Below, one piece after another: positions 11,616-64,000 of a DNA stretch of 64,000 bases. The notes under the pieces are model-generated. The model was not told the DNA's origin. It searched no databases and worked only from the letters and a program-made list of their open reading frames with translations. Positions within the stretch are counted from its first letter, which is position 1. Every line of letters begins with the position of its first letter. The position numbers and the translations under genes are program-made. Source of the DNA: the human T2T-CHM13v2.0 reference genome, Homo sapiens; the NCBI GenBank assembly GCA_009914755.4, contig CP068257.2:6368001-6432000 (forward strand), given 5' to 3'.

Positions 11616-11914
<299 letters not shown>

Positions 11915-13030: not shown

Positions 13031-13189
13031 TACACACACAAACACTTACAATGTAAAATAAAGAAAAGAGAGTAACCCGAAATTTAAGAGGAGAATTATG
13101 AGGAAAAACAGAGTAAAAAATGAAATTTGGATCAAGAAATGACTAGGTAAGTTAGACCCATGGCACTGTAATCACAACTTTTTTACCAT

Positions 13190-15256: not shown

Positions 15257-15345
15257 TCTTTGTTTTTGTCAAGTTTTTGAGGTGTAAGTGTTCTTTATAT
15301 ACTCAATATTAAGCAATACCCTGTCTCTTAAAAACAAAATGATAC

Positions 15346-15640
15346 AGCCAAGCGTGGTGGCTCATGCCTGTAATCTCAGCATTTTGGGAGGCCGAGGTGG
15401 GTGAATCACCAGAGGACAGAAGTTCGAGACCAGCCTGGACAACCTGGTGAAACTCCATCTCTACTAAAAATACAAAATTGGCTGGGTGTGGTGGAACATG
15501 CTTGTGATCCCAGGAACTTGGGAGGGTGAGGCAGGAAGAATTGCTTGAATTTGGGAGGGAGAGGTTGCAGTGAGCCAAGATCATGTCACTGCACTCCAGC
15601 GTTGGACAACAAAATGGGATCTCCATCTCAAAAAAAAAAG
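15346..15640 (+). mobile_element. Full-length Alu with poly-A. It is the last interspersed repeat before the satellite block.
   Basis: agccaagcgtggtggctcatgcctgtaatctcagcattttgggaggccgaggtgggtgaatcacc ... gtcactgcactccagcgttggacaacaaaatgggatctccatctc, then 10 A's. Confidence 0.9.
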
Positions 15641-40500: not shown

Positions 40501-40999
40501 TGGAATGGAATGGACTCGAAAGGAATGGAATGGACTCGAACGGAATGGAAAGGAATGTACCCGAATGGAATGGAAAGGAATGGAATGGAATGGTATGGTA
40601 TGGAATGGAATGGATTTGAATGCAATAGAATGAAGGGAATTTAATGGACTTGAAAGGATTCGAATTTAATAAGTGGAATGGACTCCAATGGAATGGAATG
40701 GAATGGACTTTAATGCAATGGAGTGAAATGGAATGGACTCAAATGGAATGGAATGGAATTGACGCTAATGGAAATGAATGGAATAATACCGAATGGAAAG
40801 GAATGGAATGGAATGGAATGGAATGGAATAGAATAGACTGGAATACAATGTGTTTGGAATGGACTCGACTGGAATGGAATGGAATTGAATTGAATGGACT
40901 CAAACGGAATAGCATAGAATGGAATGGACTCAAACGCAATGGAATGGAATGCATTTGAATGGATTGGAATGGACTCGAATGGAATGGATTTGAATGGAC

Positions 41000-43900
41000 T
41001 CGTATGCAATGGAATGGCATTGAATGGACTCGAAAGGAATGGAATGTAACGGGATGGAATGAACCCGAATGGAAAGGAACGTAATGGAATCAAATGTATT
41101 GGAATGGAAAGGAATGGAATGAATGGAATGGCAAGGAATTTACTCGAATGGGATGGAATGGAAAGGAATTTACTCGAATGGAATGCAATGGAGTGGACTG
41201 AAATGGAAAAGCATGGAATGGAATGGACTCGATGCAACGGAATGGAATGGACTCGAATGGAACGGAATGGACTTGAATGGAGTGGAGTCAAATGGACTCG
41301 AATGGAAAGCAGTGGAATGGAACCATATGGAATGTACCCCAAAGCAGTGGAACGGAACGGAAAGGAATGGAATGGAATGTACTTGAATTGTATGGAACGG
41401 AATTGAATCGACTTGAAAGGAATGGAATGGAATGGAATGGAATGGCCTCGAAAGGAATACAATGGAATGGACCACAATGAAATGGAATGCAAAGGAATGG
41501 ACTCAAATGGAATGGAATGGAATTGATTCGAATGGAATTGAATGGAATAGAACCGAATGGAATGGAATGGAATGGAATGGAATGGACTCGAATGGAATGG
41601 AATGGAATGGACTCGAATGGAATGGAATGGAATGGGCTCAAATGGAATAGAATGCAATGGAATGGAAAATAATGTAATGGCATATAATAGACTGGAATGT
41701 AATGAGCTTGGAATGGACTGGACTGGAATGGAATGGAATGGAATGGACTCAAATGGAATAGCATGGAACGGAATGGACTCAAATGCAATGGAATGGAATG
41801 CACTCGAATGGAATGGAATGGACTCGAATGGAATGGATTTCAATGGACTCGTATGGAATTGAATGGCATTGAACGGACTCGAATGGAATGGAATGTAACG
41901 TAATGGAATGAACCAGAATGGAATGGAACGTAATGGAATCATATGTGCTGAAATGGAAAGGAATGGAATGAATGGAATGGAATGGAATTTACTCGAATGT
42001 GATGGAATGGAATGGAATTTAATCAAATGGAATTGAATGAAATGGAATGAAATGGAATAGCATGGAATGGAATGGACACGAATGCCAAGGAATGGAATGG
42101 ACTCGAATGGAACGGAATGGACTCATATGGAGTGGAGTCAAATGGACTCGAATGGAATGCAATGGAATGCAACCAAATGGAATGTACTCGAATGGAATGG
42201 AACGGAACAGAACGGAATGGAACGGACTTCAATGGGAAGGAAAGGAATGGACTAACTAGAATGGAATGGAATGTAATGAACTACAATGGAATGGAATGGA
42301 CTCTAATGGAATGGAATTGAAAGGACTCGACTGGAATGTAACGGATTCGAATGGCCTCGAATGGTGTGGAATGGAATGGAATGGACTCGAATGCAATGGA
42401 ATCTAATGGAACCGAAAGGAATGGAATGGAATGGAAAGGAATGGACCCGAATGCAATGGAATGCAATGGAATCAAATGGTATGGAATGTATTGTAATGGA
42501 CTCGAATGAAATGGATAGGAATGGACTCGATTGGAATGGATTGGAAATGTCTCGAGTGGAATGGAATGGAATGTCATGGACTCGAAAGGAATGGAATGGA
42601 CTCGAATGGAATGCAAAGTATTGGACCCAAATGGAATGGAATGGAATGGAATGGTATGGCATGGAATTCAATGGATTTGAAAGGAAAAGAATGAATGGAA
42701 TGGAATGGACATGAAAGGATTGGAATGGAATGGACTCAAATGGAATGCAATGTACATGAATGGAACAGAATGGAGTGGAATACACTCGAATGGAATACAA
42801 TGGAATTTAATTGAATGAACTCTAATGGAAAGGAATGTAATGGAATAGAAGGCAATGGAATGCAATGGAATGGAATCAAATGAAATGGAATTGAATGGAC
42901 TTGAATGTAATAGAATGGAAGAGACTCGAATGGAATGGAATGCAATGGAATGGACATAAATGGAATTGAAAGGATTTGACTCAAATGGAATGGTTTGGAA
43001 TTGATTGGAATTGAAAACATAGGGAAGGAATACAGTGGAATGAACTCGAATGGAATGGAATGGAATGGACTGGACTGGAATGGAATGGAATGGAATGAAT
43101 TGGAATGGAATGGAATGGAATGGAATGGACTCGAATGGAATGGAATGCAATGGACTGGGATCAAATGGAATGGAATGGAATGGAATGGGAAAGAATGGAA
43201 TGGAATAAAATGGACTGGAATGTAATAAGTTTGGAATGGACTGAAATGGAATGGAATGGCATGGAATGGAATGGAATGGACTCAAATTGAATAGCATGGA
43301 AAGGAAAGGACTCAAATGCAATGGAATGGAATGGACTTGAATGGAATGTAATGGACTCGAATTTAATGGATTTGAATGGGCACGTATGGAATGGAATGGC
43401 ATTTAATGGACTCGAATGGAATGGAAAGTAACGGAATGGAATGAATCCGAATGGAATGGAATGGAATGGGGTGAAATGTGCTGGGATGGAATGGAATGGA
43501 ATGGAATGGAATGGAATTTACTCGAATGGGATGCAATGGAATGGAATTTACTCAAATGGAATGGAATGGTATGGACTAAAATGCAATAGCATGGAATGGA
43601 ATGGACTCGAATGCATCAGAATGGAATGGACTCGAATGGAACGGAATGGACTCGAATGGAGTGGAGTCGAATGGACCTGAATGGAATGCAATGGAATGTA
43701 ACCGAATGGAATGTACTCAAATGCAATGGAACGGAATGGAATGGAAAGGAAAGGATCGGAACGAAACGGAATGGAAGGGAATGGATTTGAATGGAATGGA
43801 ATGGAATGGAATTGAATGGACTCAAAAGGAGTGGAATAGAATGGAAAGTACTCGAATGGAATGGAATGGAATGAACTCCAATGGAATGAAATGGACTCGA

Positions 43901-46900
43901 ATAGAATGGAATGGAATGGAAACGACTCGACTGGAATGGAATGGAATAGAATGGCCTCGAATTGGATTCAATGGAATGGAATGGACTCGAATGGAATAGA
44001 ATGGAATGGAATGCAATGGAATCGAATGAGATGGAATGTATTGGAATGGACTCGAATGGAATGGATTGCAACGGACCCAAATGGAATGGAGTGGAATGGT
44101 CTCCAATGGAATGGAACGGAATGTATTGGAATTGAATGCAATGGAATCGAATGGGATGGAATGTATTGGAATGGACTCGAATGGAATGGATAGGAATTCA
44201 CCCGAATGGAATGGAATGGAATGGTCTCGAGTGGAATGGAATGGAATGGTATGGAATGGACTCGAATGGAATGGAATGGACTCGAATGGAATGCAAAGGA
44301 ATGGACCCGAATGGAATAGAATGGAATGGTATGGTATGGAATTTAAAGGACTTAAATGGAATATAATGAATGGAATGGAAGGGACACGAAAGGATTGGGA
44401 TGGAATGGACTCAAATGGAATGCAATGGACATGAATGGAACAGAATCGAGTGGAATGTTCTCGAATGGAATACAATGGAATTTAATGGAATGGACACTAA
44501 TGGAATGGAATGGAATGGACTTGAATGCAATGGAATGCAATGGAATGGTATCTAATGAAATGGAATGGAGTGGACTTGAATGGAATAGAATGGAAGAGAC
44601 TCGAATGGAATGGAATGCAATGGAATGGACTTAAATGGAATTGAATGGAATTGACTCAAACGGAATGGTTTGGGATTGAATGGAATTGAAAAGATAGGGA
44701 TGGAATACAGTGGAATGAACTCGAATGGAATGGAATGGAATGGAATGATATGGAAAGGAATGGAATGAAATGGAATGGAATGGATTGGATTGGAATGGAC
44801 TCGAATGGAATGGAATGGAATGGACTCGAATAGAATGGAATGGAATGGAATGGAATGGAATGGAATGCAATGAAGCGGAAAAGAATGGAAAGGAAGAGAA
44901 TGGACTGGAATGTAATAAGTTTGGAATGGACTGAAAAGGAATGGAATGGCATGGAATGGAATGGAATGCACTAAAATGGAATAGCATGGAATGGAAAGTA
45001 CTTAAATGCAATGGAATGAAATGGACTTGAATGGAATGGAATGGAATAGATTCGAATTTAATGGATTTGAATGGACACGTATGGAATGGAATGTCATTGA
45101 ATGGACTCGAATGGAATGGAATGTAACGGAATGGAATGAACCTGAATATAATGGAATGGAATCGAATGAAATGTGCTGGAATAGAATGGAATGAATGGAA
45201 GGGAATGGAATGGAATGGAATGGAATTTACTCGAATGGGATGGAAGGGAATGGAATTTACTCGAATGGAATGGACTGAAATGCAATAGTATGGAATGGAA
45301 TGGACTCGAATGCAATGGAACGGAATGGACTCGAATGGAACGGAATGGACTCGAATGGAAGGGAGTCGAATGGACTAGAATGGAATGCAATGGAATGGAA
45401 CCGAATGGAATGTACACGAATGGAATTGAACGGCATGGAATGGAAAGAAAAGGAATCGAACAGAACGGAACGGAGTGGAATGGACTTGAATGGAATGGAA
45501 TGGAATGAAATGTGAGGGAATGGAATGGAATGGAATGGAATGAAATGAAATACAATGGAATGGAATGGAATGGAATGGAATGGATTGGAATAGAATTAAC
45601 TCGAATGGGAAGGAATGGAATGGAATTCTCTCGAATGGAATGGAATGTAATGGACTGAAATGCAATAGCATGGAATGGAATGTACTCGAAAGCGATGGAA
45701 CAGAATGGACTCGAATGGAACGGAATGGACTCGAATGGAGTGGAGTCGAATGGACTCGAATGGAATTCAATGGAATGGAACCGAATGGAATGTACTCGAA
45801 TGGAATGGAACGGAATGGAATGGAAAGGAAAGGAACGGAATGGAACGGAACGGAATGGAATGGAATGGAATGGAATGGAATGGAATGGAATCTACTCGAA
45901 TTGTATGGAATGGAATTGAATGGACTGAAATGGAGTGGAATTGAATGGAAAGGACTCGAATGGAATGGAATGGAATGATCTCCAATGGAATGGAATGGAC
46001 TTGAATAGAATGAAATGGAATGGAAAGGACGACTAAAATGGAATGGAATAGAATGGCCTCGAATTGCATGGAATGAATGAAATGGACTCGAATGGAATAG
46101 AATGGAATGGAATGCAATGGAATCGAATGGGATGGAATGTATTGGAAGGGACTTGAATGGAATGGATTGGAATGGACCCAAATGGAAGGGAGTGGAATGG
46201 ACTCGAGTGGAATGGAACGGAATGTATTGGAATGGAATGCAATGGAATCGAATGGGATGGAATGTATTGCAGTGGACTCGAATGGACTGGATAAGAATGG
46301 ACCCGAATGGAATGGAACGGAATGGTGTCGAGTGGAATGGCGTCTAATGTAATGGACTAGAATGGAATGGAATGGACTCGAATGGAATGGAAAGGAATGG
46401 ACCCGAATGGAATGAAATGGAATGGAATGGTATGGTATGGAATGGAATGGACTTGAATGGAATAGAATGAATGGAATGGACTCGAAAGGATAGGAATGGA
46501 ATGGACACAAATGGAATGGAAGGGACATGAATGGAACGGAATGGAATGGAATGAACTCACATGGAATACAATGGAATTTAATGGAATGGGCTGTAACGGA
46601 ATGGAATTGAAGGGACTTGAATGGAATTGAATGGAGGAGACTCGAATGGAATGGAAGGCAATGGAATGGACTCAAATGGAATGGAATGGAATTGAATGGA
46701 CTCGAAAGGATTCGGAAGGAGTACAGTGGAATGGACTCAAATGGAATGGAATGGACTCGAATGCAATGGAATGCAATAGAGTGGACTAAAATGGAACGGA
46801 GTGGATTTGAATCAAAAGGAATTGAATGGAATGGACCCGAATTGAATGGAAAGTAATAGAATGGAAAGGAATGGAATGGAATGGAATGGAATGGAATAGA

Positions 46901-47650
46901 GTGGACTCGAATGGAATGGACTCGAATGGAATGGAATTGAATGGAATGGACTCGAATGTAATGTAATGGAATGGAATGTGCTCAAATGGAATGGAATGGA
47001 AAACAATGGCATGGAATAGAATGAACTGGAATGTAATGAGTTTGGAATGGACAGGAATGGAATGGAATGGAATGGAAAGGAATGGAATGGACTCAAATGG
47101 AATAACATGGAATCCAATGGAATAGAATGTAACGGAATGTAATGAACACGAATGTAATGGAATGTAATAGAATGAACTGGAATGTAAAGAATTTGGAATG
47201 GACAGGAATGGAATGGAATGGAATGGAAAGGAATGGAATGGACTCAAATGGAATAACATGGAATCGAATGGAATAGAATGTAACGGAATGTAATGAACAG
47301 GAATGTAATGGAATGTAATGGAATGAAAGGTGCTGGAATGGAATGGAATGGAATGGAGTGGAAAGGAATGAAATGGAATGGATCTTGCACTAATGGGTTG
47401 GAATGCAATGGAATTTACTAGAATGGAATGGAATGGAATGGACTGAAATGGAATAGCATGGAATGGAATGGACTCGAATGCAATGGAATGGAATGGACTC
47501 GAATGGAACGGAATGGACTCGAAAGAGTGGAGTCGAATGGACTTGAACGGATTGCAATGGAATGGAACAGAATGGAATGTACTCGCATGGAATGGAAATG
47601 AATGGAATAGAACGGAACAGAACGGAATGGAATTGACTGGAATGGAAAGG
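41000..47650. repeat. Higher-order repeat of about 1.7-2.0 kb within HSat3, at least 3 copies. It contains a recurring module of about 400 bp.
   Basis: The string gaattgaaaa(c/g)atagggaaggaatacagtggaatgaactcgaatgg recurs at about 43,005 and 44,685, with a more diverged version at about 46,710. The module ggaatttactcgaatggg...ggactcgaatggaacggaatggactcgaatggagtggagtcgaatggac recurs at about 41.06, 41.91, 43.44, 45.13, 45.59 and 47.40 kb. Minus-strand ORF peptides 42303-42800 and 43822-44475 are near-identical, as are the peptides around 45767-46675. Confidence 0.75.
47032..47315. repeat. Tandem duplication of about 140 bp inside HSat3
   Basis: The string gaactggaatgtaa(t/a)ga(g/a)tttggaatggacaggaatggaatggaatggaatggaaaggaatggaatggactcaaatggaataacatggaat(c)caatggaatagaatgtaacggaatgtaatgaaca occurs twice back to back. 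Confidence 0.8.
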
Positions 47651-50600
47651 AATGCAATGGAATGGAGTGGACTTGAATGATATGCAATGGAATGGACTCG
47701 AATGAATTGGAATGGACTCAAATACAATGGAATAGAATGGAAAGGAATCAACTGGAATGGAATGGAATAGAATGGCCTCAAATGGATTGAAATGGAATGG
47801 AATGGACTCAAATGCAATGGAATGGAAGGAACCCAACGGAATGGAAAGGACTCGAATAGAATGGTATGGAATGGAATGGACTCAACGGGAATGGAATAGA
47901 TTAGAATGGCCTCGAGTGGGTTGGAATGGAATGGAATCTACTCAAATGGAATGGAATGGAATGGAACCGACAGGCATGGAATGGAAAGGAATGGATCCGA
48001 ATGGAATGGAATGGAATGGAATGCAATGGAATTGAATGGGATGGAATATATTGCAATGGACTCGAATGGAATGGATAGGAATGGACCCAAATGGAATCAA
48101 TTGGAATGGTCTCGATTGGAATGGAACGGACTTGAATCATATTGAATGGAATGGAGTCGAATGAATTGGAATGGAGTCTAGTTGAATGGAATGGAATAGA
48201 ATGGAATGGAATGGATTGGAATAGAATGGAATGGAATGGAGTGGACTCGAATGGAATGGAATGCACTGAAATGGAATGGAATGCAATGGAACCCACTCGA
48301 ATGGAATAGAATGGAATGGAATGGAAGGGACTCGAATGAAATGGAATGAAATGGACTCGAATGGAATGTAGTGGACTCGAATGGAAAGGAATGGACTCGA
48401 AAGGAAAGGGATGTAATGGAGTGGAATGGAATGAAATGGGCTTCAATGGAATAGAATGCAATGGAATGGAAGGGACTCGAATGAAATGGAATGGAAAGGA
48501 CACGAATGCAACGGAATGCACTGGAATGGAATGTAATTGTTAGGAATAGACTCAAAAGTAATGGAATGGAATGGACCCAATTGGAATAGAACGGAATGGA
48601 ATGGAATGGAGAAGAAGGGAATGGAATGGAATGCAATGAAATGGACTGGAATGGATTTCAATGGAATGGAATGGAATAGAATGGAATGGAATGGAATGGA
48701 ATAGATAGGGATGAAATGGAATGGAAGGGACTCCAATAGAATGAAATGCACTCCAAAGGAATGGAATAGAATTGAATGGAATGGACTCGAATGGAATGGG
48801 ATTGACTCAAAAGGAATGGAATGGAAAGGAATGGACTCGAATGGAATGCAATGGAATGGATCTAAGTGGTATGGAAAGTAATGGACATGAATGGAATGGA
48901 AAGGAATAGACTGTAATGGAAAGGAAAGGATTGAAAAGGAATATAATGTAATGGACTCGAATGGAATGGAAAGGACTCGAGTGGAATGGGCTCAAATGGA
49001 ATGGAAAGGCCTCGAGTGGAATGGAACGGAATGCAATGGACTCGAATGGAATGGATTGGAATGTATTCCAATGGAATGGAAAGAAATTGAATGGATTCGA
49101 GTCAAACCGAATGTGTTGGCATGGAATGGACTCGAATGGAATGGAATGTAGTTGAATGAAATGGACTCGAACGGAATGGAATGGAATGGAATAGAATGGA
49201 GTAAAATGGAATGGAAATGAATGGTATCTAATGGAATTGAATGGACAAAATAGGAATGCAATGGAAAAGAATGAAATGGAATTGAATGGACTCAATAGTA
49301 ATGCAATGGAAAAGAATGTAATGGAAAGGAATGGCCTCGAAGGGAATGTAATGGAATGAAATGTGCAGAAATGGAATTGAATGGAAGGAAATCGAATGGA
49401 AAAAATTTTATAGAATGGACTCGAAGGGAAAGCTGTTGAATTGAATGGACCCCAAAGCAATGGAATGGAATGGAACGGATTGGAAAGGAATGGAATGGAA
49501 TGAAATGGAAAAAACTCGAATGGAATTTAATGGAATGGAATGGAATGGAATGGAATTGACTAGGATTAAGTGGAGTGGAATGGAAAGGAATGGAATGGAG
49601 TGGAATGGAATTGACTCAAGTGGAATGGAATGCAATGGGCTCAAATAAAATGGAATGCAATGGACTCGAGTGAAATGGAATGCAGTGGAACGGACTCGAA
49701 AGAAATGCAGTGGAATGGAATAGACTGCAATACAATCGAATGGAATGGAATGGAGTGAAATGGAATGGACAACAAAGACATGGAATGAAATAGAACGGGT
49801 TCAAGTTGAATGGAATGGAATAGAATGAAATGGAATGGAATACAATGGACTCAAATGGCATGCAATGGAATGGAATTGAAACGAATGGAATGGACTCAAA
49901 TGGAATTTAATGGAATGGTGCCAAAAGGAATGGAATGGAAATGAATGTAATTTACTCTAATGCGATGGTACTGAATGGAATATAATATAATGGAATGGAC
50001 TCAGATGGAATAGCACAGAATAGAATGGACTCTAATGCAATTGAATTGAATGGAATCGAATGGAATTGAACGGATTTCAATGGAGTGGTGTCTAATGGAT
50101 TCGAATGGAATGCAATGGAATGGAATGGAATGTACTCGAATGGAATGGAATGGAATGAAATGAAACGGACTCGAATGGAATGGAATGGAATGGCATGGAA
50201 TGGAATGGAATGGATTTAAATGGAAAGCAGTTGATTTGAACAAAATGGAATGGAACGGAACGGAAAGGAATGCAATGGAATGGAATGGAAAACAATGCAA
50301 GGGAATTCAATAGAATGGAAAGTAATGAAATTGAATGGAATGGAATGCAATGCAATGCAATGCCATGAAATGCAATGCAAGGAAATGAAATGGACTCGGA
50401 TGGAATGGAATGGTCTCAAATGAAAAGGAATGGACCAGAATGAAATGGAATGGAATGAAATGAAATGGACAAGAATGGAATGGACCGGAATGGAATGGAA
50501 AGGAATGGAATGGAATGGAATGGAATAGAATGAAACAGAATGAAATAGAATGGATTGGAACAGAATGGAATGGAATGGACTCAAATGGAATGGACTCGAA

Positions 50601-53600
50601 TGGAACACAGTGGAATTTACTGGATTAGAATCTAACGGAATTAACTGTGATGAAAAGGAATGGAATGGACTCGAATGGAATCGATGGGAATTGAATGGAC
50701 GTGAATGGAATGAAACAGAATGGACACGAAAGGAATAGAATGGAATGGAATGGAATGGAATGGAATGGTGTTGAATGGAATAGAATGGAATGCAATGGAC
50801 TCGAATGATATGGAATTTAATGGATGCAAAAGGAATGGAATGAACTCAATGGAATGGAATGGAATGGAATCGAAAGGAATGGAATGGAATGGACTCACGT
50901 GGAATGAAATGGAATGGTATCAAATGCAATAGATTGAAATGGAATGGACTCGAGATGAAAGGAATGGAATGGACAGGAAAGGAATGGAATTGAATGGAAT
51001 GGAATGGAATGGAATGGACAGGAAAGGAATGGAATTGAATGGAATGGAATGGAATGGAATAGACCCGAAACGAATGTAATGGAAGGAAATGTGCTGCAAT
51101 GGAATGGAATGGAATGGAATGGAATGGAATGGAATGGAATGGAATGGACTTCAAAGGAATGTAAAGGAATGAAACGTGCTGGGAAGGAATGGAATGGAAT
51201 GGAATGGAATAAAATGTAATGGAATGGAATCGAATGGAATGTAGTTGAATTGCATGGACCTGAAAGCAATGGAATGGTATGGAACAGATTAGAAGGGAAT
51301 GGAATGGAATGAAAAGGAAAAGCCTCGAATGGAATGCAATGGAATGGAATAGACTCGAATGAAATGGAGTGGACTCGAATGGAATGGAGTGGAATGGAAT
51401 CGACTCGAGTGGAATGGAACGGAATGGCCTCGAAAGAAATGGCATGCAGTGGCATGGAGTCCAAAGGAATGCAATGGAAAGCAAAAGAATTGAATGGAAT
51501 GGAATGGAACGGAATGGAAAGGAATGGAATTGACGCGAATGAAATGGAATGGAATAGAATGGACTCCAATGGAATGGAATGGAATGGAATGGAATGGAAT
51601 TTACTCCAATGCGATGGAATGGAATCGAATTTACTCGAACGGAATGGAATGAATGGACTCAAATGGAATAGCATGGAATGGTATGGACTCTAATGCACTG
51701 GAATTGAATGGATTCGAATGGAATGGAATGGAATGGCATGGAATGGAAAAGTTTGGATTTGAATTGAAAGGACCCAAAAAGAAAGGAATGGATTGGAATG
51801 GAATGCAATGGAATGGAATGTAATGGAATGGATTGGATTTGAATAGAAAGGACCCGAAAAGAATGGAATGGCATGGAATGAAGAGGCCTCGAATGGAATG
51901 GAATGGATTGGAATGGACTCGATTGAAATGGAATGGACTCGAATGGAATGTAAAAGAATGGAGTTGACTGGAGTGCAATGGAATGGAATAGAATTGATTT
52001 GAATGGAATGCAATGGACACGAAAGAAATGGAACGGAATGGAATGGAATGGAATGGACTCACATGGAACGGAATAGACTCGAATGGAATAGCACAGAATA
52101 GACTCGAATGGATTGGAATGCAATGGAATGGGCTCGATGGAATGGAATAGAATGGGCTCGATGGAATGGAATAGAATGGACTCGAAAGGAATTCAATGGA
52201 CTCGAAAGGATTGGAACAGAATGCAAAGGAATGGAATCGAATGCAATGCAATGGAATTGAATCGAATAGAATTGAATGGAGTTGCCACGAATGGAAAGGC
52301 TGGAATGGAATGGAATGGAATTGAAAGGAAAGGAATGGATTAGGCACAAATGGCATGGAATGGAATGGAATGGAATGGATTCGAATGGAATTGAATGGAA
52401 TGGATTCAAACGACATAATATGTAATTGAATGGACGCGAAAGCAATGGAATGGAATGGACTCGAAAGGAATGGTATGGACTCAAACTAAATAGAGTGGAA
52501 TGGACTCCAATGAAATGGAAAGGAGTTGAATGGACTCGAATAGAATGGAATGTATCAGAATAGAATGAACTCAAATGGAATGGAATGGAATTTAATGAAA
52601 TGGACTCGAATGGAATGGAATGAAATGGAATGTACTGGAATGGAATGGAAGGGAATGGAATGCGTTTGAATTGAGTGGACTGGAAAAGAATGGAATTTAA
52701 TGGAATGGAATGAAATGGAAAGAAGTGGCTTCGAATGGATTCGAATGGAAAGGAATTTACTCGAATGAAATGGAATGGAATCAAATGGAATGAAATGGAA
52801 TGGGATCAACTCGTGTGCAATGGAATGGAATGGAATGGATTCGAAGGGAATGCAATGCAATGGACACGAATGGAATAGAACCAAAAGGAATGGAACGGAA
52901 TGGAGAGGTACGGAATGGAACGGAATGGAATGGAACGGAACGGAATGGAAAGGAATGGAACGGAACGCAATGGATTGAAATGGAATGGAATCGAATGGAA
53001 TGGAATGGATTGGAATCTAATGGAATGGAATATAATTGACTCGAAAGGAATGGAATGCAGTTGAGTGCACTCAAATGGAATAGAATGGAATGGAATGGAA
53101 GGGACTCGAATGAAATGGAACAGAATGGACTCGAATGTAATTGAATGGACTGGAATGGAGTGGAATGGAATGGTATGGAGAAGAATGGAATAGATAGGAA
53201 TGGAATGGAACGGAAGGGACTATAATAGGATGCAATGGACTCCAAAGGAATGGAATAGAACGGAATAGACAGCAATGGAATGGATTCAAATCGTATAGAA
53301 TGTAATGGAAAATATAGGACAGGAGAAAATGGAATGGAATGGACTCGAATGGAATGTACTGGACTCAAAAGGAATGGAATGGAATGGACTTAAGTGGAAT
53401 GGAATGTAATGGACAGGAATGGAATGAAATGGAACAGACGGTAATGTAAAGAAATGGATTGGAAAGGAATGGAATGGGATAGACTAGAAAGGAATGGAAA
53501 GGACTCGAGTAGAATGGATTGGAATGGAATGGACTCGAATGGAATGGAAAGGATTCGAGTGGAATGGAATGGAATGCAATGGACTCGAACGGAATGGGGT

Positions 53601-56600
53601 GGAAGTTATTCTAATGGAATGGAGTGGATTTTATTATAATGGAATGGAATGGAATTGAATGGATTTGAATTGAACTGAATATAATGTCATGGAATGGACT
53701 CGAATGTAATGTAATTTAATGGAATGAAATGTATTCCAAAGGAATGGAATGGAATGGACTCGAATGGAATGGAATGGAATGGAATAAAATGGAATGGACA
53801 ACAATGGTATGCAATGGAATTGAATGGACTCAACAGGAATGCAATGGAAAAGAATGTAATGGAATGGAGTGGACTCGAAAGGAATGTAATGGAATGAAAT
53901 GTGCTGAAATGGAATGGAATGGAATGGAATGGAGTGGAATGGAATAGAATGGAAAAAATGTAATAGAATGGAATTGAAGGGAATGCAGTTGAATTCAATG
54001 GACATGAAAGCAATGGAATGGAATGGAACGGATTTGAAAGGAATGGAATGGAATGAAATGGAAAAGACACGAACGCAATGGAATGGAAAGGACTAGAATG
54101 AAATGGAGTGGAATGGAATGGAATAGAATGGAATCGACTCAAGTGGAATGGAATGGAAAGGACGCGTATGATATGGAATGCAGTGGAATGGAATAGAATG
54201 GAATGCAATGGAGTGGATTAGACACGAATGGAATGGAATGGAATGGAATGGAATGGAATGAGATGGAATGGACGCAAATGTAATGGAATGAAACATAATT
54301 GAATCGGAATGGAATGGATTGGAATGGAATGGAATGGAATGGAATCTAATGGAAAAATATAATAGAATGGACTCGAAGGGAATGCAGTTGAATTGAATAG
54401 ACACAAAAGCAATGGAATGGAATGGAACGGACGGGAAGGGAATGGTATGGAATGAAACGGAAAGACTAGAATGGAATGGAAAGGAATGGAATGAACTAGA
54501 TTGAAATATAGTGGAATGGAATGGAATGGAATGCAATGGAATGGAATCGACTCAAGTGGAATGGAATGGAATGGAATCAAATAAAATGGAATGCAGTGGA
54601 ATGGACTCGAATGGAATGCAATGGGATGGAATAGACTCGAATGGAATGGAAAGAAATGTAATTTAATGGAATGAAATGGAATGGACGGGAATGAAATGGA
54701 ATGAAATACAATGGATTCGAATGGAATGGAATGGAATGGAATGCAACGGACACAAATGGAATGGAAAGGACTTGAAAAGAATGGAATGGACTCGAATAGA
54801 ATTTATTGGGATGGTTCCAAATGGAATGGAATGGAATGGAATTTAATTGAACGTGATGGAATGGAATGGAATTTACTCCAATGGACTGGAATGGAATGGA
54901 ATCAAAAGGAAAAGAATGGAATGGATTGGACTCGAATGCAATGGAATGGAATGGACTCGAATGCAATCGTATGGACTTGATCAGAATAGAGTGGAAAGAA
55001 ATCCAAAGGATAGGAGTGGAATTGAAGGGACTCGAATAGAATGGAAAGTAACGGAATGGAATGAACTCGAATGGAATGGAATGAAATGGACTCGAATGGA
55101 ATGGAATGATCTGGAATGGAATGGAATGCAATGCATTTGAATTGAATGAAGCCGAAAAGAATGGAATGGAATGGAATGGAATGGAATGGAATGGAATGGA
55201 ATGGAATGGAATGGAGTGGATTTGAATTGAATGGACCTGAAGAGAATGGAATGGAACGGACTGGAATGATGAGGCCTCGAATGGAATGGAATGGATCGGA
55301 ATGGACTTGAATGAAATGGAACGGACTCGAATAGAATGGAATAGAATTTAATCGACTTGAGGGCAATGGAATGGAATCGAATAGAATGGAATCGACTCGA
55401 GTTCAATGGAATGGAATGGAATGGATACGAATGGAATGGAATGGACCCAAACGGAATGGAATGGAACGGAATGGAATGGAATGGAACTGAATGGAATTTC
55501 CACGCATGGAATGGAATAGACTAGAATGGAATGGAAAGGAGTAACTCGAAGAAAATGGAATGCAATGGAATGCACTCGAATGGAATGGAATAGAACAGAC
55601 TAAAAAGGAATTCATTGGACTTGAAAGGAATGGAATGGAATGCAGTGGAATGGAATCGAATGGATTGAAATGGAACTGACTCGAAAGGAATTCAGTGGAT
55701 TGGCCACGAATGGAAGGGGTGGAATGGAATGGACTAGAATTGAATGGCAAGGAATGCATTGGTCTCAAATGGAATGGAATATATTGGAATGCAATTGAAT
55801 AGAATCGAAAGGAATCCAATGGAATTGACAGGAATGGAATTGAATGGAGTGGCCACGAATGGAAGGGGTGGAAAGGAATGGACTGCAATTGAAATCAAAG
55901 GAAGGCACTGGGCTCAAAAGGAATGGAATGGAATGGATTCGAATGGAATTGAATGGAATGGATTCAAATGGAATTGCATGGAATGAAATGGACTTGAATG
56001 CAATGGAATGGAGTGGACTCGAATGGAATGGTATGGACTAGAACAGAATAGAGTGGAATGGACTTCAATTGAATGCAATGGAATTGAATGGACAAGAATA
56101 GAATGCAATATAACAGAATGGAATGAACTGGAATACAATGGAATGGAATGGAATGAAATGGACTTGAATGGAATGGAATCGAACGGAATGCACTGGAATG
56201 GAATGGAATGCATTTGAATTGAATGGACCCGAAAAGAAGAATGGAAAGGAATGGAATGGAATGGAATGGAATGGAATGAATTTGAAATTAATGGACCTGA
56301 AAAGACGATAATGGAAAGGAATGGAATGAAGTGGCCTCGAATAAAATGGAATGGATTGAAATGGACTCGAAAGAAATGTTATGGACTCGAATGGAATGGA
56401 ATAGAATGGAATCAGCACGAGTTCAATGGATTTAAATTGAATGGATTGGAATGCAACGGAAAGTACCCGAATGGAATGGAATGGAATGGAACGGAATGGA
56501 ATGGAAAAGAAACGAATGGACTCACATGGAATAGAAGAGAATCGATTGGAACAGAACGGAATAAACTCGAATGGAATGGAATGCCACAGAATGGACTCGA

Positions 56601-57449
56601 ATGGAATGGATTAGAATGGACTAGAATGGAATTCAATGCACTCGAAAGGAATGCAATGGAATGCAAATGAATGGAATCAAATGGAATGCAAGGGAATTGA
56701 CTAGAATGGAATTGTTTGGAGAGGCCACGAATGGTAAGGGTGGAATGGAATGCACAGGAATTGAATGGAAAGGAATGGATTGAGCTTAAATGGAATGGAA
56801 TGGAATGGATTGGACTGGAATTGAATGGAATGGATTCAAATGGAATAGCATGGAATGGAATGGACATGAATGCAATCGAATGGAATGGATTCGAATGGAA
56901 TGGTATGGACTCGAACGGAATAGAGTGGTATGGACTTCAATGGAATGGAATGGAATGGAATGGAATCGAATAGAATGGAATGTAACGGAATGGAATGAAC
57001 TCGAATCCAAAGGTATGGAATGAAATGGACTCGAAATATTTCGAATGGAATGGAAAGGAATATATTGGAATGGAATGGAATCGAATGGAATGCATTCGAA
57101 TTGAAGAGAACTGAAAAGAATGGAAAGGAATGGAATGCAATGAAGTGGCCTCGAAGGGAATGGAATGGATTGGAAAGGACTCGAATGAAATGGAATGGAT
57201 TCGAATGGAATGGAATAGAATGGAATTGACTCGAGTACAATCGAATGGAATGGAATGGATTCTAATGGAATGGAATGGACCCAAATGGAATGGACCAGAA
57301 CCAAACGGAATGGAATGGAACAGAATGGAATGGAGTCGCATGGAATGTAAAGGAATGGACCCAAATGGAATGGAATGGAATGGAATGGAATGGAATGGAA
57401 TGGATTTCAATGTAATAGAATGAATGGAATGGAATGGACACGAAAGGAT

Positions 57450-60400
57450 TTGAATGGAATGGAATGGAATGGATTGGAGTGGAATGGAATGGAATAGAAT
57501 GGAATATAACGGAATGGAATGGAATGGAAAGGAATGGAATCAACTGGAATGGAATTGAATGGAATGGAATGGAATGGTAGGGAATGCAATGGAATGGTAT
57601 GGAATGGAAGGGAATGGTAGCGAATGCAATGGAATGGAATGGAATCAACGCGAGTGGAATGGAATGGAATGGAATGGAGTGGAATTGAATCCACTGGAAT
57701 GGAATGGAATGGAATGGAATGAAACGGAAAGGAATTTAATGGAATGGAATGGAATCAACACGAGTGGAATTGAATGGAATGGAATGGAATGGAATAAACC
57801 CGAGTGGAGTGGAATGGAATGGAATGGAATGGAAAGGAATGGAATAGAATAGAATGGAATGGAATCAACCATAAGGGAATGGAATTGAAAGGAATCGAAT
57901 GGAATAGAATCGAATGGAATTGAATCAACCAGAGTGCAATGGAATGGAATGCAGTGGAATGAAACAGAATGAAATAGAATGGAATTGAATTAACATGAGG
58001 GGAATGGAATGGAATGGAAGGGAAAAGAATGGAACTTAATCATCTGGAGTGGAACGAATGGAATGGAATGGAATGGAATAGAAAGGAATTGAATCAGCCT
58101 GAGTGGAATGGAATGGAATGGAATGGAATAGAATGGAATGGAATGGAATGGAATGGAATGGATTGGAATGGAATGGAATAGAATTGTATTGAATTAACTG
58201 GAATGGAATGGAATGGAATGGATTGGAATGGAATGGAATAGAATGGAATTGAATTAACTGGAATGGAATGGAATGGAATGGAATGGAATGGAATGAAATG
58301 GAATGGAAAGGAATGGAATAGAATTGAATTGAATTAACTGGAATGGAATGGAACGGAATGGAATGGATTGGAATGGAATGGAATAGAATGGAATAGAATT
58401 AACTGGAATGGAATGAAATGGAATGGAATGGAATGGAATGGAATGGAATGAAATGAAATGGAATGGAATGGAATGGAATGGAATGAAATAAAATGGAATG
58501 GAATGAAATGGAATGGAAAGGAATTGAGTCAAGTATAATGGAATGGAAGGGAATGGAATGGAATGGAATGGAATGGAATCAACTGCTATGTAATGAAACG
58601 GATTGGAATGGAATGGAATGGAATAGAAAGGAATTGAATCAACCTGAGTGCAATGGAATGGAATGGAATGGAATTGCGTCAACTGAAATGGAATGGAATG
58701 GAAAGAAAAGGAATGGAATGGAATTGAATGGAAAGGAATGGAAAGGAATGGAATGGAATGGAATGGAAAGGAATTGAATCAACCTGAGTGGAATGGATTG
58801 GAATGGAATAGAATGGAATGGAATAGAATGGAATTGAATTGAGTCAACTGGAATGGAATGGAATGGAATGGAATGGAATGGAATGGAATGGAATTGCATC
58901 AACTGAAATGGAATGAAATGGAAAGGAAAGGAATGGAATGGAATTGAATGGAATGGAATGGAAAGGAATGGAATGGAATGGAATGGAATGGAATTGAATC
59001 AACCTGAGTGGAATGGATTGGAATGGAATAGAATGGAATGGAATGGAATGGAATTGAATTGAGTCAACTGGAATGGAATGGAATGTAACGGAATGGAAAG
59101 GAAAGGAATGGAATGGAATTGAATGGAATGGAATGGAAAGGAATGGAATGGAGTGGAATGGAAAGGAATGGAATTGAATGGAATGGAATCGAATGGAATC
59201 AACTGGAGTGGAATGGAGTGGAATGCAATGGAATGGAATAGAAGGAAAAGGTGGGGAATGTAATAGAATGTAATGGAATGAACCCCAATGGAATATAATG
59301 TAATGTAATGGAATGGAATGGAATGGAATTGAATGGAACGGAAAGGAGTGGAATTGAATCCACTGGAATGGAATGGAATGGAATGGTATGGAATGTAATG
59401 GAATCAACCCGAGTGGAATGGAATGGATTAGTCTGGAATGGAATTGAATGGATTGGAAAGGAATGGACTGGAATAGAATGGATTGGAATGGAATAAAATG
59501 GAAGTGAATCAACACGAGTGGAGTGGAAAGGAATGGAATGGAATGGATTGGAATGGAATAGAATAGAATGGAATTGAATCAACCCGAGTGGAATGGAATG
59601 GAATGGAATGGAATGGAATGGAATGGAAAGAAATGGAATGGAATGGAATGGAGTGGAATGGAATGGAAAGAAATGGAATGGAATGGAATGGAATCAACCC
59701 GATTGGAATGGAATGGAATGGCATGGCATGGAATGGAATGGAATGGAATAGAATGGAATTGAATCAACATGAGTGGAATGGAATGGAATGGAATAGAATG
59801 GAATTGAATCAACATGAGTGGAATGGAATGGAATGGAATAGAATGGAATTGAATCAACATGAGTGGAATGGAATGGAATGGAATGGATTCAACTGGAATG
59901 GAATGGAAAGGAATGAAACGGTATGGAAAGAAAGGAATTGAATAGAAAGGAAGGGAATGGAAAGGAATTTATTGGAAAGGAATGGAATGGAAAGGAATGG
60001 AATCAACTGAAAAGAAAGGAATGGAATGGAATGGAATGGAATGGAATGGTAGAGAATGCGAAGGAATGGTAGGGAATGGAATGGAACGATAGGGAATGGA
60101 ATGCAACGGAATGGAATCAACACGAGTTGTATGGAATGGAATGTAATGGAACGGAATGTAGTGGAACTGAATCCAGTGGAATGGAATGGAATTGAATGGA
60201 ATGGAATAGAATGGTATGGAATGTAATGGAGTCAAGCCGAGTGGAATGGAATGGATTGGTCTAGAATGGAAATGAATGGATTGTAAAGGAATGGAATGGA
60301 ATAGAATGGAATGGAACAGAATAAAACAGAATTGAATAAACACGAGTGGAGTGGAAAGGAATGAAATGGAATGGAATGGAATGGAACGAAATCGAATGGA

Positions 60401-63400
60401 ATGGAATGGAATCAACCCGATTGGAATGGAATGGAATGGAAACGAATGGAATGGAAACGAATGGAATGGAATCAATGGGAATGGAATGCAATGGATTGGA
60501 ATGGAATGGAATGGAATGGAATGAACCCGAGTGGGAAGGAGTGAAATGGAATGGAATGCAATGGACTGGAATGGAATGGAATGGAATGGATTGGAATGGA
60601 ATGGAATGGAATTGAATAAAAGAATTGAATCAACCTGAGTGCAATGGAATGGAATGGAAAGGAATGGAATGGAATGGAATGGAATAGAATGGAATTGAAT
60701 CAACCGGAATGGAATGCGGTGGAATGGAATGGAGAGGAGTCGAATGGAGTGGAATGGAATGGAAAGGAGTGGAATGGAATGGAATGGAATAGAATGGAAT
60801 TGAATCAACCGGAACGGAATGCAGTGGAATGGAATGGAATGGAATGGAATGGAATGGAATGGAATGGAATGGAATGGAATTGAGTGAACTCTAATGGAAT
60901 GAAGTGGAATGGAGGGGAATGGAATGGAATGGAATCAACACGAGTGGAATGGAATGGAATGGAACAGAATGGAGTGGAATGGAATTGAATCAACCCGAGT
61001 GGAATGGAATTGAATTGAATGGAAAGGAATGGAATTGAATAGAATGGAATTGAATCCACCAAATTGGAATGAAATGGAATGGAATGGAATGGAATGGAAT
61101 GGAATCAACTGGAATGGAAAGGAATGTAATTGACTCAACTGGAATGGAATGGAATGGAATGGAATAGAATGGAATTAAACCAACAGGAATGGAATGGATT
61201 GGAATGGAATAGTGTGGAAAGGAATGGAATTGAATCAACTGGAATGGAATGGAATGGAATGGAAATGGAATGGAATCAACCCGACGGGAATGGAATGGAA
61301 TGGAATGGAATAGAATGGAATTGAATTCACTGGAATGGAAAGGAATTCAATGGAATGAAATGGAATGGAATGGAATGAAATGAAATAGAATGGAATTGAG
61401 TCAACTGTATTGGAATGGGTTGTAATGGAATGGAATGGAATTGAGTCAACCCTAGTGGAATGAATGGAATGGAAAGGAATTGAAGGGAATGGAAATGAAT
61501 GGAATGGAATGGATTGGAATCAACTGGAATGCAATGAAATGGACTGCAATGGAATGGAATGGAATAGAAAGGAATTGAATCAACCTGAGGGGAATGGAAT
61601 GGAATGCAATGGAATGGAATGCAATGGAATGGAATGGAATGGAATAGAATGGAATTGAACGAACCAGAATGGAATGGAATCAACCCGACTGGAATGGAAT
61701 GAAATGGAATGGAATGGAATGGAATAGAATGGAATTGAATTAAGCGGAATGGAATGGAATGGAATGGAATGGAATTGAGTCAACTGGAATGGAATGGAAT
61801 GGAATGGAATTGAATGGAGAGGAAAGGATTGGAATGGCATTGAATGGAATGGAATGGAAAGGTATGGTATGGAATCGGATGGAATGGAATGGAATAGAAT
61901 AGAGTGGAATGGTAGGGAATGGAATAGAATGGAATGGAATCCAACCGAATGGAAGGGAATGTAATGTAATGGAATGGAATGGAATAGAGTGTAATTGAAT
62001 CCACTGGAATGGAATGGAATATAAAGGAAAGGAATGTAATGTAATTGAAAGGAATGTAATTGAATGGAATGGAATGGATTGGAAAGGAATGGAATCAACT
62101 GGAATGGAATGTAGTGGAATGGAACAGAATGGAATGGAATGGTACGAAATGCAATGAAATGGTATAGAATGGAATGGAATGGTAGGGAAAGGAGTGGAAT
62201 GGAATGGAATCAACACGAGTGGAATGGAAAGGAATGGAATGGAATAGAATGGAATCAATTGGAATGCAATGGAATGGAAATAAATCAACCGGAGTGGAAT
62301 GGAATGGAATGGAAGGGAACGGATTAGAATGGAATGAACTGTAAAGGTATGGAATGGAATGGCATGAAAAAGAATGGAATGTATGGGAAAGGAATCGAAT
62401 GGAATTGAATCAACCTGGGGGGATAGAATGGAATGGAATGGAATGGAATGGAATGGAATGGAATAGAATGGAATGGAAACAACGCGAGTGGAATGGAGTG
62501 GAATGGATTGGATTGGAATGGAATGGAATGCAATGGAATGGAATGGAATGGAATGGAATGGAATGCAATGGAATGGAATGGAATGGAATGCAATGGAATT
62601 CAAAAGAATGGAATGGAATGGAATGGAAAGGAATCTACCCAAATAGAATAGAATGGAATAGAATGCAATGGAATGGAAAGGAATAAATCCGAATAGAATG
62701 GAATGGAATAGAATCAACACTAGTTGAATAGAACGGAATGGAATAGAATGGAATGGAATGGAATGCAATGGAATGGAATGGAATGGAATGGAATGGAGAG
62801 GGGTGGAATGGAATAGAAATTTATTGAATCAAACCCAATGGAATGTATTGGGATGGAATGGAATGGAATGGAATGGAATGGGATAGAATGGAATCGAATA
62901 GAATAGAAAGGAATTGAATAAACCCGAGTTGATTGGAAAAAAATGAAATGGAATGGAAAGGAAAAAAATGGATTTGAATCAACCCGAGTGGAATGGTATG
63001 GAATGGAATGGAATAGAATGAAATGGAAACAACCCAAGTGGAAAGGAATGGAAGCGAATGAAATTGAATGGAACAGAATGGAATGTAATGGACTGGAATA
63101 GAATGGAATTTATCAACCCGAGTGGAAAGGAATGGAATGGAATGGAATGGAATGGAATGGAATGGAAGGAAATGGAATAGAATCAAGCCGAGTTGAATGC
63201 AATGGAATGCAATGGAATGGAATAGAATCAACCCGAGTGGAAAGTAATGGAATGGAATGGAAAGGAATGGAATGGAATGGATTCGAATAGAAGCAACACG
63301 AGTGGAATGGAATGGAATGGAATGGAATGAAATCAACCCAAGTGGATTGGAATGGAATGGAATGGGATGGAATGGAATCAAACCGAGTGGAGTGGAATGG

Positions 63401-64000
63401 AATGCAATGGAATGGAATCGAATGGAAAGGAATAGAATGGAATTGAATTAACCCAAGTTTAGTGGAATAGAATGGAATGATATGGATTGGAATAGAATGG
63501 ATTTGAATGGAATGGAATGGAAAGGAATGGAACTGAATCAGCCCAAGTGGAATGGAATGGAATGGAATGGAATTGAATGGAATTTAATGGAATGGAATCA
63601 ACCCCAGTGGAATGGAATGGGAAGGAATGGAATGGAATGGAATGGAATGGAATGGAATGGAATGGAATTGAATAGAGTGGGATGGAATAGAATGGAATGG
63701 AATCAACCAGAGTGGAATGGAATGGAATGCAATAGAATAGAATGGAATGGAATGTTAGGAATGCAATAGAATGGAATGGAATCAACTCGAGTGGAATGGA
63801 AAGGAATTGAGTGGAATGCAATAGAATTTAATGGAATCCACTAGAGTGGAATGGAATGGTATGGAAAGGAGTGAAATGCCATAGAACGGATTTGAATCAA
63901 CCCGAGTGGAGTGGAGTGGAATGGAATGGAATGGAATGGAATGGAATTCAATCAACCCGAGTGGAATGGAATGGAATGGAATGGAATGAAATGGAATGGA
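57450..64000. repeat. HSat3 of the classical type. (GGAAT)n runs are interrupted every 40-120 bp by the 10-bp element CAACCCGAGT (complement ACTCGGGTTG, i.e. the published A(T/C)TCGGGTTG motif). The array continues beyond the window end.
   Basis: Recurrent ggaattgaatcaacccgagtggaatggaatgg, with variants caacctgagtg, caacatgagtg, caacacgagtg and caaccggaatg. The GACTCGAATGG motif that dominates upstream is nearly absent here. Confidence 0.85.
59740..59890. repeat. Perfect 45-bp unit x3 (gaatcaacatgagtggaatggaatggaatggaatagaatggaatt) within classical HSat3
   Basis: Direct reading of 59761-59805, 59806-59850 and 59851-about 59885. Minus-strand ORF 59579-59860 shows the matching 15-aa repeat MLIQFHSIPFHSIPL x3. 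Confidence 0.9.

What the first reader, a model, noticed from the sequence alone, without database searches (positions are those of the whole stretch)
57300..57700. Subfamily switch within the array at about 57.45 kb, from the GACTCGAATGG type to the classical CAACCCGAGT (ATTCGGGTTG) type
Upstream of about 57.4 kb the non-GGAAT punctuation is almost always ggactcgaatgg or ggactcaaatgg. Downstream it is almost always gaatcaac(c/a)(c/t)gagtgg, the 10-bp element described for classical satellite III, for example the 9q12-type. The changeover happens within about 150 bp, at 57,420-57,560, without unique sequence in between. It marks a junction between two independently homogenised HSat3 subfamilies. 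The downstream type is the one best documented as transcribed in stress.
Basis: partly seen in the sequence, partly recalled or inferred. Interest (0 to 1): 0.5.

Follow-up and report, generated by a model that had tools for sequence, protein, structure and literature searches.

The report
Boundary between two satellite-3 subfamilies
Inside one long (GGAAT)n satellite array the recurring "punctuation" motif changes abruptly at about 57.45 kb, a real but ordinary boundary between the two long-described clades of human-type satellite 3 (HSat3A and HSat3B).

Summary
A (GGAAT)n array runs from 15,981 to the window end, all on one strand. Exact GGACTCGAAT occurs 198 times in 15,981-57,446 and never after; GAATCAAC occurs 4 times before and 41 times after. 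A motif-blind hexamer changepoint scan peaks at 57,481, about 30 SD above a block-permutation null. The last A-like doublet ends at 57,445 and the first CAAC unit starts at 57,541. Between them lie 19 generic pentamers, with no foreign DNA, strand flip or phase break. An independent metagenome contig spans the same junction with 8 substitutions and only 5-bp-multiple indels, so it is not an assembly artefact.

Against one published diagnostic 24-mer per subfamily, the upstream block is HSat3A1-like and the downstream block HSat3B1/B2/B3-like. The literature places the classical CAACCCGAGT oligo in the HSat3B clade only.

"Almost always" is overstated, since about 18-21% of interruptions carry the diagnostic doublet. 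Neither block is recently homogenised (best internal identity 75-89%). "9q12-type" is not shown. Stress transcription of this locus is untestable here, and canonical HSF1 trimers are essentially absent. This is a known kind of feature, of low interest.

The parts
15981..57445 (+). Upstream block, HSat3A-clade (HSat3A1-like). GGAAT pentamers (38.5% perfect) punctuated by the in-register doublet GGACT CGAAT/CAAAT. It is CpG-rich (22.7/kb) and TaqI-rich (13.9 TCGA/kb).
   Evidence: TRF. Motif counts. Pentamer spectrum. HSat3A1 24-mer: 2 exact and 42 one-mismatch hits here, none downstream. CpG and TCGA densities.
57229..57445 (+). Eroded edge of the upstream block. The last exact ACTCGA is at 57,229, followed only by degenerate A-like doublets: GGACC CAAAT at 57,277 and 57,357, and GGACA CGAAA at 57,436-57,445. 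A 1-bp deletion lies at about 57,420.
   Evidence: In-register parse. Phase runs. Exact GGACTCGAAT is lower in the last 9 kb, at 9 against 15.5 per 3 kb.
57446..57540 (+). Junction interval: 19 generic GGAAT-like pentamers carrying neither diagnostic doublet, on the same strand and in the same 5-bp phase as the sequence on either side.
   Evidence: The hexamer changepoint at 57,481 falls inside it.
57541..64000 (+). Downstream block, HSat3B-clade (B1/B2/B3-like). GGAAT pentamers are purer (52.5% perfect) and punctuated by (T)GAAT CAACN NGAGT. CpG is lower (11.0/kb) and TCGA is 1.55/kb. The block runs off the window end.
   Evidence: The HSat3B1, B2 and B3 24-mers are enriched here.
57243..58974 (+). 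Stretch, including the junction, that is replicated in an independent public contig (VNIW01006290.1, locus L001, reverse strand).
   Evidence: Exact 36-mer hit. Full-length alignment with 8 substitutions and indels of 15, 15, 5, 5, 5, 5, 10 and 10 bp.

Best explanation
The feature is a fixed, ancient boundary inside one pericentromeric satellite-3 array. A 41.5-kb block of the HSat3A clade (closest to HSat3A1) abuts a block of the HSat3B clade (closest to B1/B2/B3; at least 6.5 kb is in the window).

Shown:
- Each block carries its own 10-bp punctuation element. Both elements sit in the same register relative to the GGAAT pentamers: GGACT CGAAT and CAACC CGAGT.
- Intermediates between the two elements are rare.
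- The switch occurs across a 95-bp tract of generic GGAAT pentamers, on the same strand and in the same 5-bp phase.
- The same junction exists in an independent sample.
- The only length differences between the two copies are whole-pentamer gains and losses, which indicates replication slippage or unequal exchange as the ongoing mutational mode.

Inferred:
- The two blocks were amplified from different founder variants. They were then joined, or grew towards each other, by unequal or non-allelic exchange within shared (GGAAT)n.
- Such an exchange needs no foreign sequence and leaves strand and phase intact.
- Since then both blocks have decayed without homogenisation, more so at their edges.

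The junction itself has no demonstrated function. Its practical consequences are step changes in CpG density (halved), TaqI sites (ninefold lower) and GGAATG/TEAD-core density (60 to 80 per kb).
For: - Step change in motif use.
- Motif-blind changepoint at 57,481, about 30 SD above the permutation null.
- Register and phase are continuous.
- No CATTCC on the + strand, and no window with a low count of GGAAT-like pentamers, so there is no transposon or unique insert.
- The 10-mer types are bimodal: 198 copies of the 4-step form and 8 of the 0-step form, against only 8 two-step and 3 one-step intermediates.
- Published subfamily 24-mers: HSat3A1 gives 42 one-mismatch hits in A and 0 in B. The B1, B2 and B3 24-mers are enriched in B.
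- Altemose 2014 divides HSat3 into two well-separated families, A and B. The paper states that the classical HSat3 oligo of Tagarro et al. occurs only in the B clade.
- An independent contig spans the junction at 99.5% substitution identity, with pentamer-multiple indels only.
- Both blocks are diverged (75-89%).
Against: - Subfamily assignment rests on one published 24-mer per subfamily, mostly through near matches. The full subfamily-specific 24-mer set was not available for HSat3.
- The chromosome and the species could not be determined with these tools.
- The window ends 6.5 kb into block B. It is therefore unknown whether B is a large array or a small island followed by more A-type sequence.
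- The mechanism of juxtaposition is inferred, not shown.
- Edge erosion is only suggestive (Spearman p = 0.2; the last three bins are low at Poisson p = 0.001).
Confidence: 0.85

Rival explanations
1. Assembly artefact: a chimeric join of two HSat3 arrays from different loci, made within shared GGAAT sequence.
For: The join lies in 95 bp of generic pentamers, exactly where an assembler could mis-join.
Against: An independently assembled public contig (VNIW01006290.1) crosses the same junction. It covers 57,243-58,974 with only 8 substitutions and 5-bp-multiple indels. The same mis-join would have to arise twice.
Confidence: 0.03
2. In-situ drift: a single array whose punctuation element mutated gradually from one form to the other along its length, with no juxtaposition of separately amplified blocks.
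For: The two 10-mers share register. They also share two derived positions relative to GGAATGGAAT (A to C at position 4, G to C at position 6). A few intermediates exist, such as CGACTCGAGT x5 and CAACTCGAGT x2. Both blocks look more eroded near the junction.
Against: Motif use is flat for 41 kb and then switches within 95-310 bp. Intermediates are rare and do not cluster at the junction: the sites at 18,005, 29,937, 35,448, 36,339, 51,401 and 55,393 are scattered. GGAAT purity, CpG density and TCGA density all step at the same place.
Confidence: 0.07
3. Functional boundary: the switch marks the start of a stress-inducible (HSF1-driven) SatIII transcription unit of the classical type.
For: Stress-induced SatIII RNAs are G-rich and are described as (GGAAT)n CAAC(C/A)CGAGT (PMC2241877). 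Here the G-rich strand is the + strand throughout.
Against: Perfect inverted HSE trimers number 1 in block A and 0 in block B. At one mismatch or fewer the densities are 1.4/kb in A and 0.16/kb in B. Published heat-shock induction maps chiefly to chr9 HSat3, with HSF1 motifs confined to sub-regions of arrays. The 9q12 subfamily is HSat3B5, and block B does not resemble its 24-mer. There are no expression data for this locus.
Confidence: 0.05

Closest known systems
HSat3A clade, subfamily HSat3A1 (Altemose et al. 2014; clones pW-1, cMEN219, QP23; chromosomes 10, 13, 21, 22 and small blocks elsewhere)
   Same: The published most-common A1-specific 24-mer reads ACTCGAATGGAATGGAATGGAATT on the G-rich strand and contains the upstream block's punctuation. 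It has 2 exact and 42 one-mismatch hits in 15,981-57,400 and none downstream. The block lacks CAACCCGAGT, as stated for the A clade.
   Different: Most matches are near, not exact. No periodicity such as the 1,524-bp unit published for clone pW-1 was detected, and the block looks more diverged. The chromosome is unknown.
HSat3B clade, B1/B2/B3 group (Altemose et al. 2014; pTRS-63, HUMASAT3, HUMPPD9; B1 specific to chr17 in T2T-CHM13)
   Same: The block contains the classical CAACCCGAGT element. The B1 24-mer (AGAATCAACCCGAGTGGAATGCAA) gives 5 hits at two mismatches or fewer. The B2 24-mer gives 6 hits at one mismatch or fewer. The B3 24-mer gives 3 hits at one mismatch or fewer. All of these fall in 6.5 kb of block B, against 0, 0 and 1 in 41 kb of block A.
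   Different: B1, B2 and B3 cannot be told apart. There are no exact 24-mer matches. No ~1.4-kb repeat unit is seen in the 6.5 kb available.
9q12 satellite III (HSat3B5, pHuR98), the main nuclear stress body locus
   Same: Same satellite family and same B clade. Transcripts from stressed cells are described by the same (GGAAT)n CAAC(C/A)CGAGT formula.
   Different: The representative B5 24-mer is not enriched in the downstream block: 4 hits at two mismatches or fewer (0.6/kb), against 66 (1.6/kb) upstream. Nothing ties this window to chromosome 9.

Membership tests
Human satellite 3 (HSat3) | Tandem array derived from (GGAAT)n/(CATTC)n pentamers | tested here: met
   TRF finds period 5 and 9,609 copies over 15,981-64,000. 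Perfect GGAAT makes up 38.5% of pentamers in A and 52.5% in B.
Human satellite 3 (HSat3) | Not HSat2 (no HSat2-type diagnostic 24-mers) | tested here: met
   The HSat2A1, 2A2 and 2B 24-mers give 0 hits at two mismatches or fewer anywhere in the window.
HSat3B clade | Presence of the classical CAACCCGAGT / ACTCGGGTTG element. Altemose 2014 Text S1 states that the Tagarro oligo is found only in the B clade. That the oligo contains this 10-mer is from my own knowledge. | tested here: met
   In the downstream block, CAACCCGAGT at one mismatch or fewer occurs about 30 times in 6.5 kb and GAATCAAC 41 times. The upstream block has 0 exact copies, and 1 copy at one mismatch or fewer before 54,981.
HSat3A clade / HSat3A1 | [quoted passage not shown] | tested here: inconclusive
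   Only the single most common 24-mer per subfamily was available. For A1 it gives 2 exact and 42 one-mismatch hits in the upstream block. A2 gives 0 exact and 5 one-mismatch hits. A3-A6 give 0 hits at one mismatch or fewer. The held copy of the full list does not reach the HSat3 entries.
HSat3B5 (9q12 type) | Matches to B5-specific 24-mers and localisation to chromosome 9 | tested here: not met
   The B5 24-mer gives 0 hits at one mismatch or fewer in the downstream block. At two mismatches or fewer it is denser upstream. This rests on one 24-mer only, and the chromosome is not testable.
Homogenised satellite array (HOR/NTR) | Long-period repeat units with high (over 95%) identity between copies | tested here: not met
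   Best off-diagonal identity of 500-bp chunks is 75-89% in A and 78-85% in B. Lag autocorrelation shows no long-period peak.
HSF1-bound stress-inducible SatIII | HSF1 occupancy and G-rich transcripts after heat shock | not testable with these tools
   Only a motif proxy was possible. Canonical inverted trimers are essentially absent from both blocks.

The most novel reading that the evidence does not exclude
The junction could be the preserved breakpoint of an ancient non-allelic, possibly interchromosomal, exchange between an HSat3A array and an HSat3B array. The exchange would have been mediated by (GGAAT)n microhomology. Because the two sides differ twofold in CpG density, the junction could also coincide with a methylation or chromatin step. 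The evidence does not exclude this, but nothing here specifically supports it beyond the clean, in-phase join.
Probability: 0.15. Interest if true: 0.3.

Novelty: already known. Interest (0 to 1): 0.12.

Why it matters
It matters little beyond annotation. HSat3A and HSat3B blocks and their boundaries were defined in 2014 and are annotated genome-wide in T2T-CHM13.

The junction does have three modest uses:
- It is a unique, mappable landmark in otherwise repetitive DNA, demonstrated by recovering it from an unrelated data set with a 36-mer.
- It illustrates that a clade boundary can be as narrow as 95 bp and preserve pentamer phase.
- It is a place where CpG, TaqI-site and TEAD-core densities step, which could serve as an internal control in methylation or ChIP studies of satellite 3.

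Tried and rejected
1. Higher-order periodicity. Ungapped lag autocorrelation to 12 kb and self-BLAST of 500-bp chunks found only old 0.9-3.5-kb duplications at 80-89% identity, and no HOR/NTR.
2. Rigorous subfamily classification with the full Altemose 24-mer list. The held copy of Dataset S2 is truncated and contains no 3A1, 3B1 or 3B2 entries. Only the one 24-mer per subfamily from Table 1 could be used.
3. Chromosomal placement.
   - The flank (1-15,980) has no convincing coding ORF.
   - Rfam finds only a U2-like element there.
   - Table S8 of Altemose 2014 lists HSat3A1-bearing hg19 clones on chromosomes 1, 2, 10, 20 and 21, and one HuRef scaffold mixes 3A1 with 3B1/B2/B3.
   - None of these could be tied to this window.
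4. The same 36-mer scan of the bacterial and archaeal genome collection found nothing.
5. The functional-motif reading. A simple HSE consensus scan shows essentially no canonical sites in either block, so a functional interpretation was not pursued.
6. A second changepoint inside block A near 38.7 kb is significant. It reflects only modest frequency drift in generic k-mers, not a motif switch.

Full report
**What is in the window.** Bases 1-15,980 are ordinary non-satellite sequence. They contain a GC-rich, CpG-island-like stretch, a U2-like element and Alu-like copies. From 15,981 to the end of the window, Tandem Repeats Finder reports one continuous period-5 array with consensus TGGAA, 9,609 copies and 68% matches. 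The G-rich strand is the + strand throughout: CATTCC never occurs on the + strand. No 200-bp window has a low count of GGAAT-like pentamers, so no transposon or unique insert interrupts the array.

**Checking the observation.**
- Counts per kb show ACTC[GA]A at 7-19/kb from 16 to 57 kb and 0-1/kb afterwards. ATCAAC is at 0-1/kb before 57 kb and 4-8/kb afterwards. GGAAT rises from about 75/kb to about 100/kb.
- The last ACTC[GA]A of the series is at 57,229, and the ATCAAC series starts at 57,539.
- Exact counts in block A (15,981-57,446) versus block B (57,541-64,000) are as follows:

| Motif | Block A | Block B | Binomial p |
|---|---|---|---|
| GGACTCGAAT | 198 | 0 | 6e-13 |
| CAACCCGAGT | 0 | 8 | 1e-7 |
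| GAATCAAC | 4 | 41 | 2e-31 |

It peaks at 57,481, on a plateau from 57,231 to 57,531. Its LLR is 2829, against 1368 +/- 48 (maximum 1520) for 200 permutations of 250-bp blocks.

The step change is real, lies at the stated coordinates and is far beyond chance.

**Anatomy of the junction.** I cut the sequence into pentamers in register.
- The upstream punctuation is the doublet GGACT CGAAT, with variants GGACT CAAAT, GGATT CGAAT and TGACT CGAGT.
- The downstream punctuation is the doublet CAACN NGAGT, usually preceded by TGAAT or GGAAT.
- Both doublets occupy the same two-pentamer slot.
- Approaching the junction, the A-type doublets become degenerate: GGACC CAAAT at 57,277 and 57,357, then GGACA CGAAA at 57,436-57,445.
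- The first B-type unit is a lone CAACT at 57,541, and the first full CAACG CGAGT is at 57,646.
- The interval 57,446-57,540 holds 19 generic pentamers: GGAAT x12 plus GGATT x2 and one each of TGAAT, GGAGT, AGAAT, ATAAC and GGAAA.
- The 5-bp phase is constant from 57,426 to 58,011. The nearest phase shift, a 1-bp deletion near 57,420, is of a kind that occurs about 1.5 times per kb everywhere in the array.

The join therefore sits within shared GGAAT sequence, on the same strand and in the same phase.

**Two types or a continuum?** The two 10-mers differ at four positions. Among the 16 possible combinations, the counts are strongly bimodal:
- the pure A form occurs 198 times;
- one-step neighbours of the A form occur 39 times;
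- two-step intermediates occur 8 times;
- one-step neighbours of the B form occur 3 times;
- the pure B form occurs 8 times.

The intermediates are scattered through block A rather than clustered at the junction. Relative to GGAATGGAAT, both elements share two derived positions (A to C at position 4, G to C at position 6). A distant common origin of the punctuation is therefore plausible, but that is inference.

**Is the junction real?** A 36-mer spanning the 1-bp deletion and the last A-like doublet was searched in public collections.
- It has one exact hit in the metagenome collection: contig VNIW01006290.1, 1,702 bp. It has none in the bacterial and archaeal genome collection.
- The contig aligns end to end with window 57,243-58,974. 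There are 8 substitutions and indels of 15, 15, 5, 5, 5, 5, 10 and 10 bp.
- An independently assembled copy of the same locus, presumably host DNA in that sample, therefore carries the same junction. This all but excludes a chimeric assembly.
- It also shows that whole-pentamer gain and loss is the prevailing length mutation.

**What the two blocks are.** Altemose et al. 2014 (PMC4022460) split HSat3 into two "very well-separated" families, A and B, and give one most-common specific 24-mer for each of 14 subfamilies.
- On the G-rich strand the HSat3A1 24-mer reads ACTCGAATGGAATGGAATGGAATT, and the HSat3B1 24-mer reads AGAATCAACCCGAGTGGAATGCAA. The published markers thus contain the two punctuation elements.
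- In the window, the A1 24-mer has 2 exact and 42 one-mismatch hits, all upstream.
- The B1 (two mismatches or fewer), B2 and B3 (one mismatch or fewer) 24-mers have 5, 6 and 3 hits in 6.5 kb downstream, against 0, 0 and 1 in 41 kb upstream.
- HSat2 markers have no hits.
[quoted passage not shown] From my own knowledge, that oligo contains ACTCGGGTTG, the reverse complement of CAACCCGAGT.

The finding is therefore an HSat3A|HSat3B clade boundary, most likely A1 next to the B1-3 group. The full 24-mer list for HSat3 was not available. The subfamily call within each clade thus stays provisional.

1. "Almost always". In A only 17.7% of runs of non-GGAAT pentamers contain the A-type doublet, and in B only 20.9% contain the B-type. 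Most interruptions are single-base variants. The doublets are the commonest multi-pentamer, C-containing punctuation, not nearly all of it.
2. "Independently homogenised".
   - The best off-diagonal identity of 500-bp chunks is 75-89% in A and 78-85% in B.
   - Only a few old internal duplications were found, and no long-period peak.
   - The blocks have distinct founders but show no recent homogenisation.
   - Exact A-type doublets are fewer in the last 9 kb before the junction (9 against 15.5 per 3 kb, Poisson p = 0.001, though Spearman p = 0.2).
   - Exact CAACCCGAGT first appears about 1.9 kb into B.
   - This hints at eroded edges.
3. "9q12-type". The 9q12 array is HSat3B5, with pHuR98 assigned to it. 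The B5 24-mer is not enriched downstream.
4. "Best documented as transcribed in stress".
   - The literature does describe stress-induced G-rich SatIII RNA as (GGAAT)n CAAC(C/A)CGAGT (PMC2241877).
   - Induction maps chiefly to chr9 HSat3 (PMC11622622).
   - HSF1 motifs occur only in sub-regions of arrays (PMC11526998).
   - In this window, perfect inverted HSE trimers number 1 in A and 0 in B. At one mismatch or fewer they are denser in A (1.4/kb against 0.16/kb).
   - Nothing supports transferring the property to this locus.

**Consequences of the step that are directly visible**:

| Feature | Block A (per kb) | Block B (per kb) |
|---|---|---|
| CpG | 22.7 | 11.0 |
| TaqI sites (TCGA) | 13.9 | 1.55 |
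| GGAATG (TEAD core) | 60 | 80 |
| GAAnnGAAnnGAA | 38 | 75 |

**Most likely history.** This part is inferred. Two blocks were amplified from different founder variants. They were brought together, or grew together, by unequal or non-allelic exchange within shared (GGAAT)n, which explains the in-phase, same-strand, insert-free join. They then decayed without homogenisation.

The rivals are:
- assembly artefact, largely refuted by the independent contig;
- gradual in-situ drift, disfavoured by the abruptness of the switch and the rarity and scatter of intermediates;
- a functional transcription boundary, for which there is no supporting evidence.

**Verdict.** HSat3 A and B subfamily blocks have been defined since 2014 and are annotated across T2T-CHM13. 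Chromosome and species could not be determined here. Interest is low.

Noticed in passing
window 3750-4900: A GC-rich, CpG-island-like stretch (GC 0.716 over 4001-5000) lies in the non-satellite flank about 11 kb from the array. It contains a short (GGCTTTGCCC)x3 repeat near 4862-4891. ORFs there look like GC-driven noise rather than coding sequence.
   Followed up: partly
window 10001-10137 (+): Rfam U2 spliceosomal RNA match (RF00004, 74 bits, E = 2.7e-13). It covers model positions 1-192 in only 137 nt, so it is probably a U2 pseudogene with internal deletions.
   Followed up: no
window 14981-15253: Two tandem Alu-like copies (TRF period 148, 1.8 copies, 79% matches) lie about 700 bp before the array begins.
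   Followed up: no
window 15975-15990: The satellite array begins abruptly after unique sequence (...CCTTCTCTGGAAAGGAATTGAATGG...), with no transition zone. The first A-type doublets appear within about 100 bp.
   Followed up: partly
window ~38,700: A second, weaker compositional changepoint lies inside the upstream block (LLR 1623 against a null of 1273 +/- 40). It reflects only modest shifts in generic k-mers, such as more GCAAT and fewer GGACT beyond it, not a motif switch.
   Followed up: yes
window 16,500-22,500; 23,500-25,500; 40,600-46,300: The upstream block contains old internal duplications: a lag of about 3.4-3.5 kb at 80-84.5% identity, a lag of about 0.9 kb at 87-89%, and lags of 1.7-2.1 kb at 85-89%. 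These are remnants of past local amplification, not a current higher-order repeat.
   Followed up: partly
window 57,930-58,578: A stretch of about 650 bp in the downstream block has no ATCAAC punctuation and the highest GGAAT density in the window (118/kb in 58-59 kb). Many chunks from all over the array find it as one of their best BLAST matches.
   Followed up: no
L001 (VNIW01006290.1) vs window 57,243-58,974: A contig deposited as metagenome sequence is a near-identical copy of this satellite junction, which implies host DNA in that metagenome assembly. All length differences from the window are multiples of 5 bp.
   Followed up: yes
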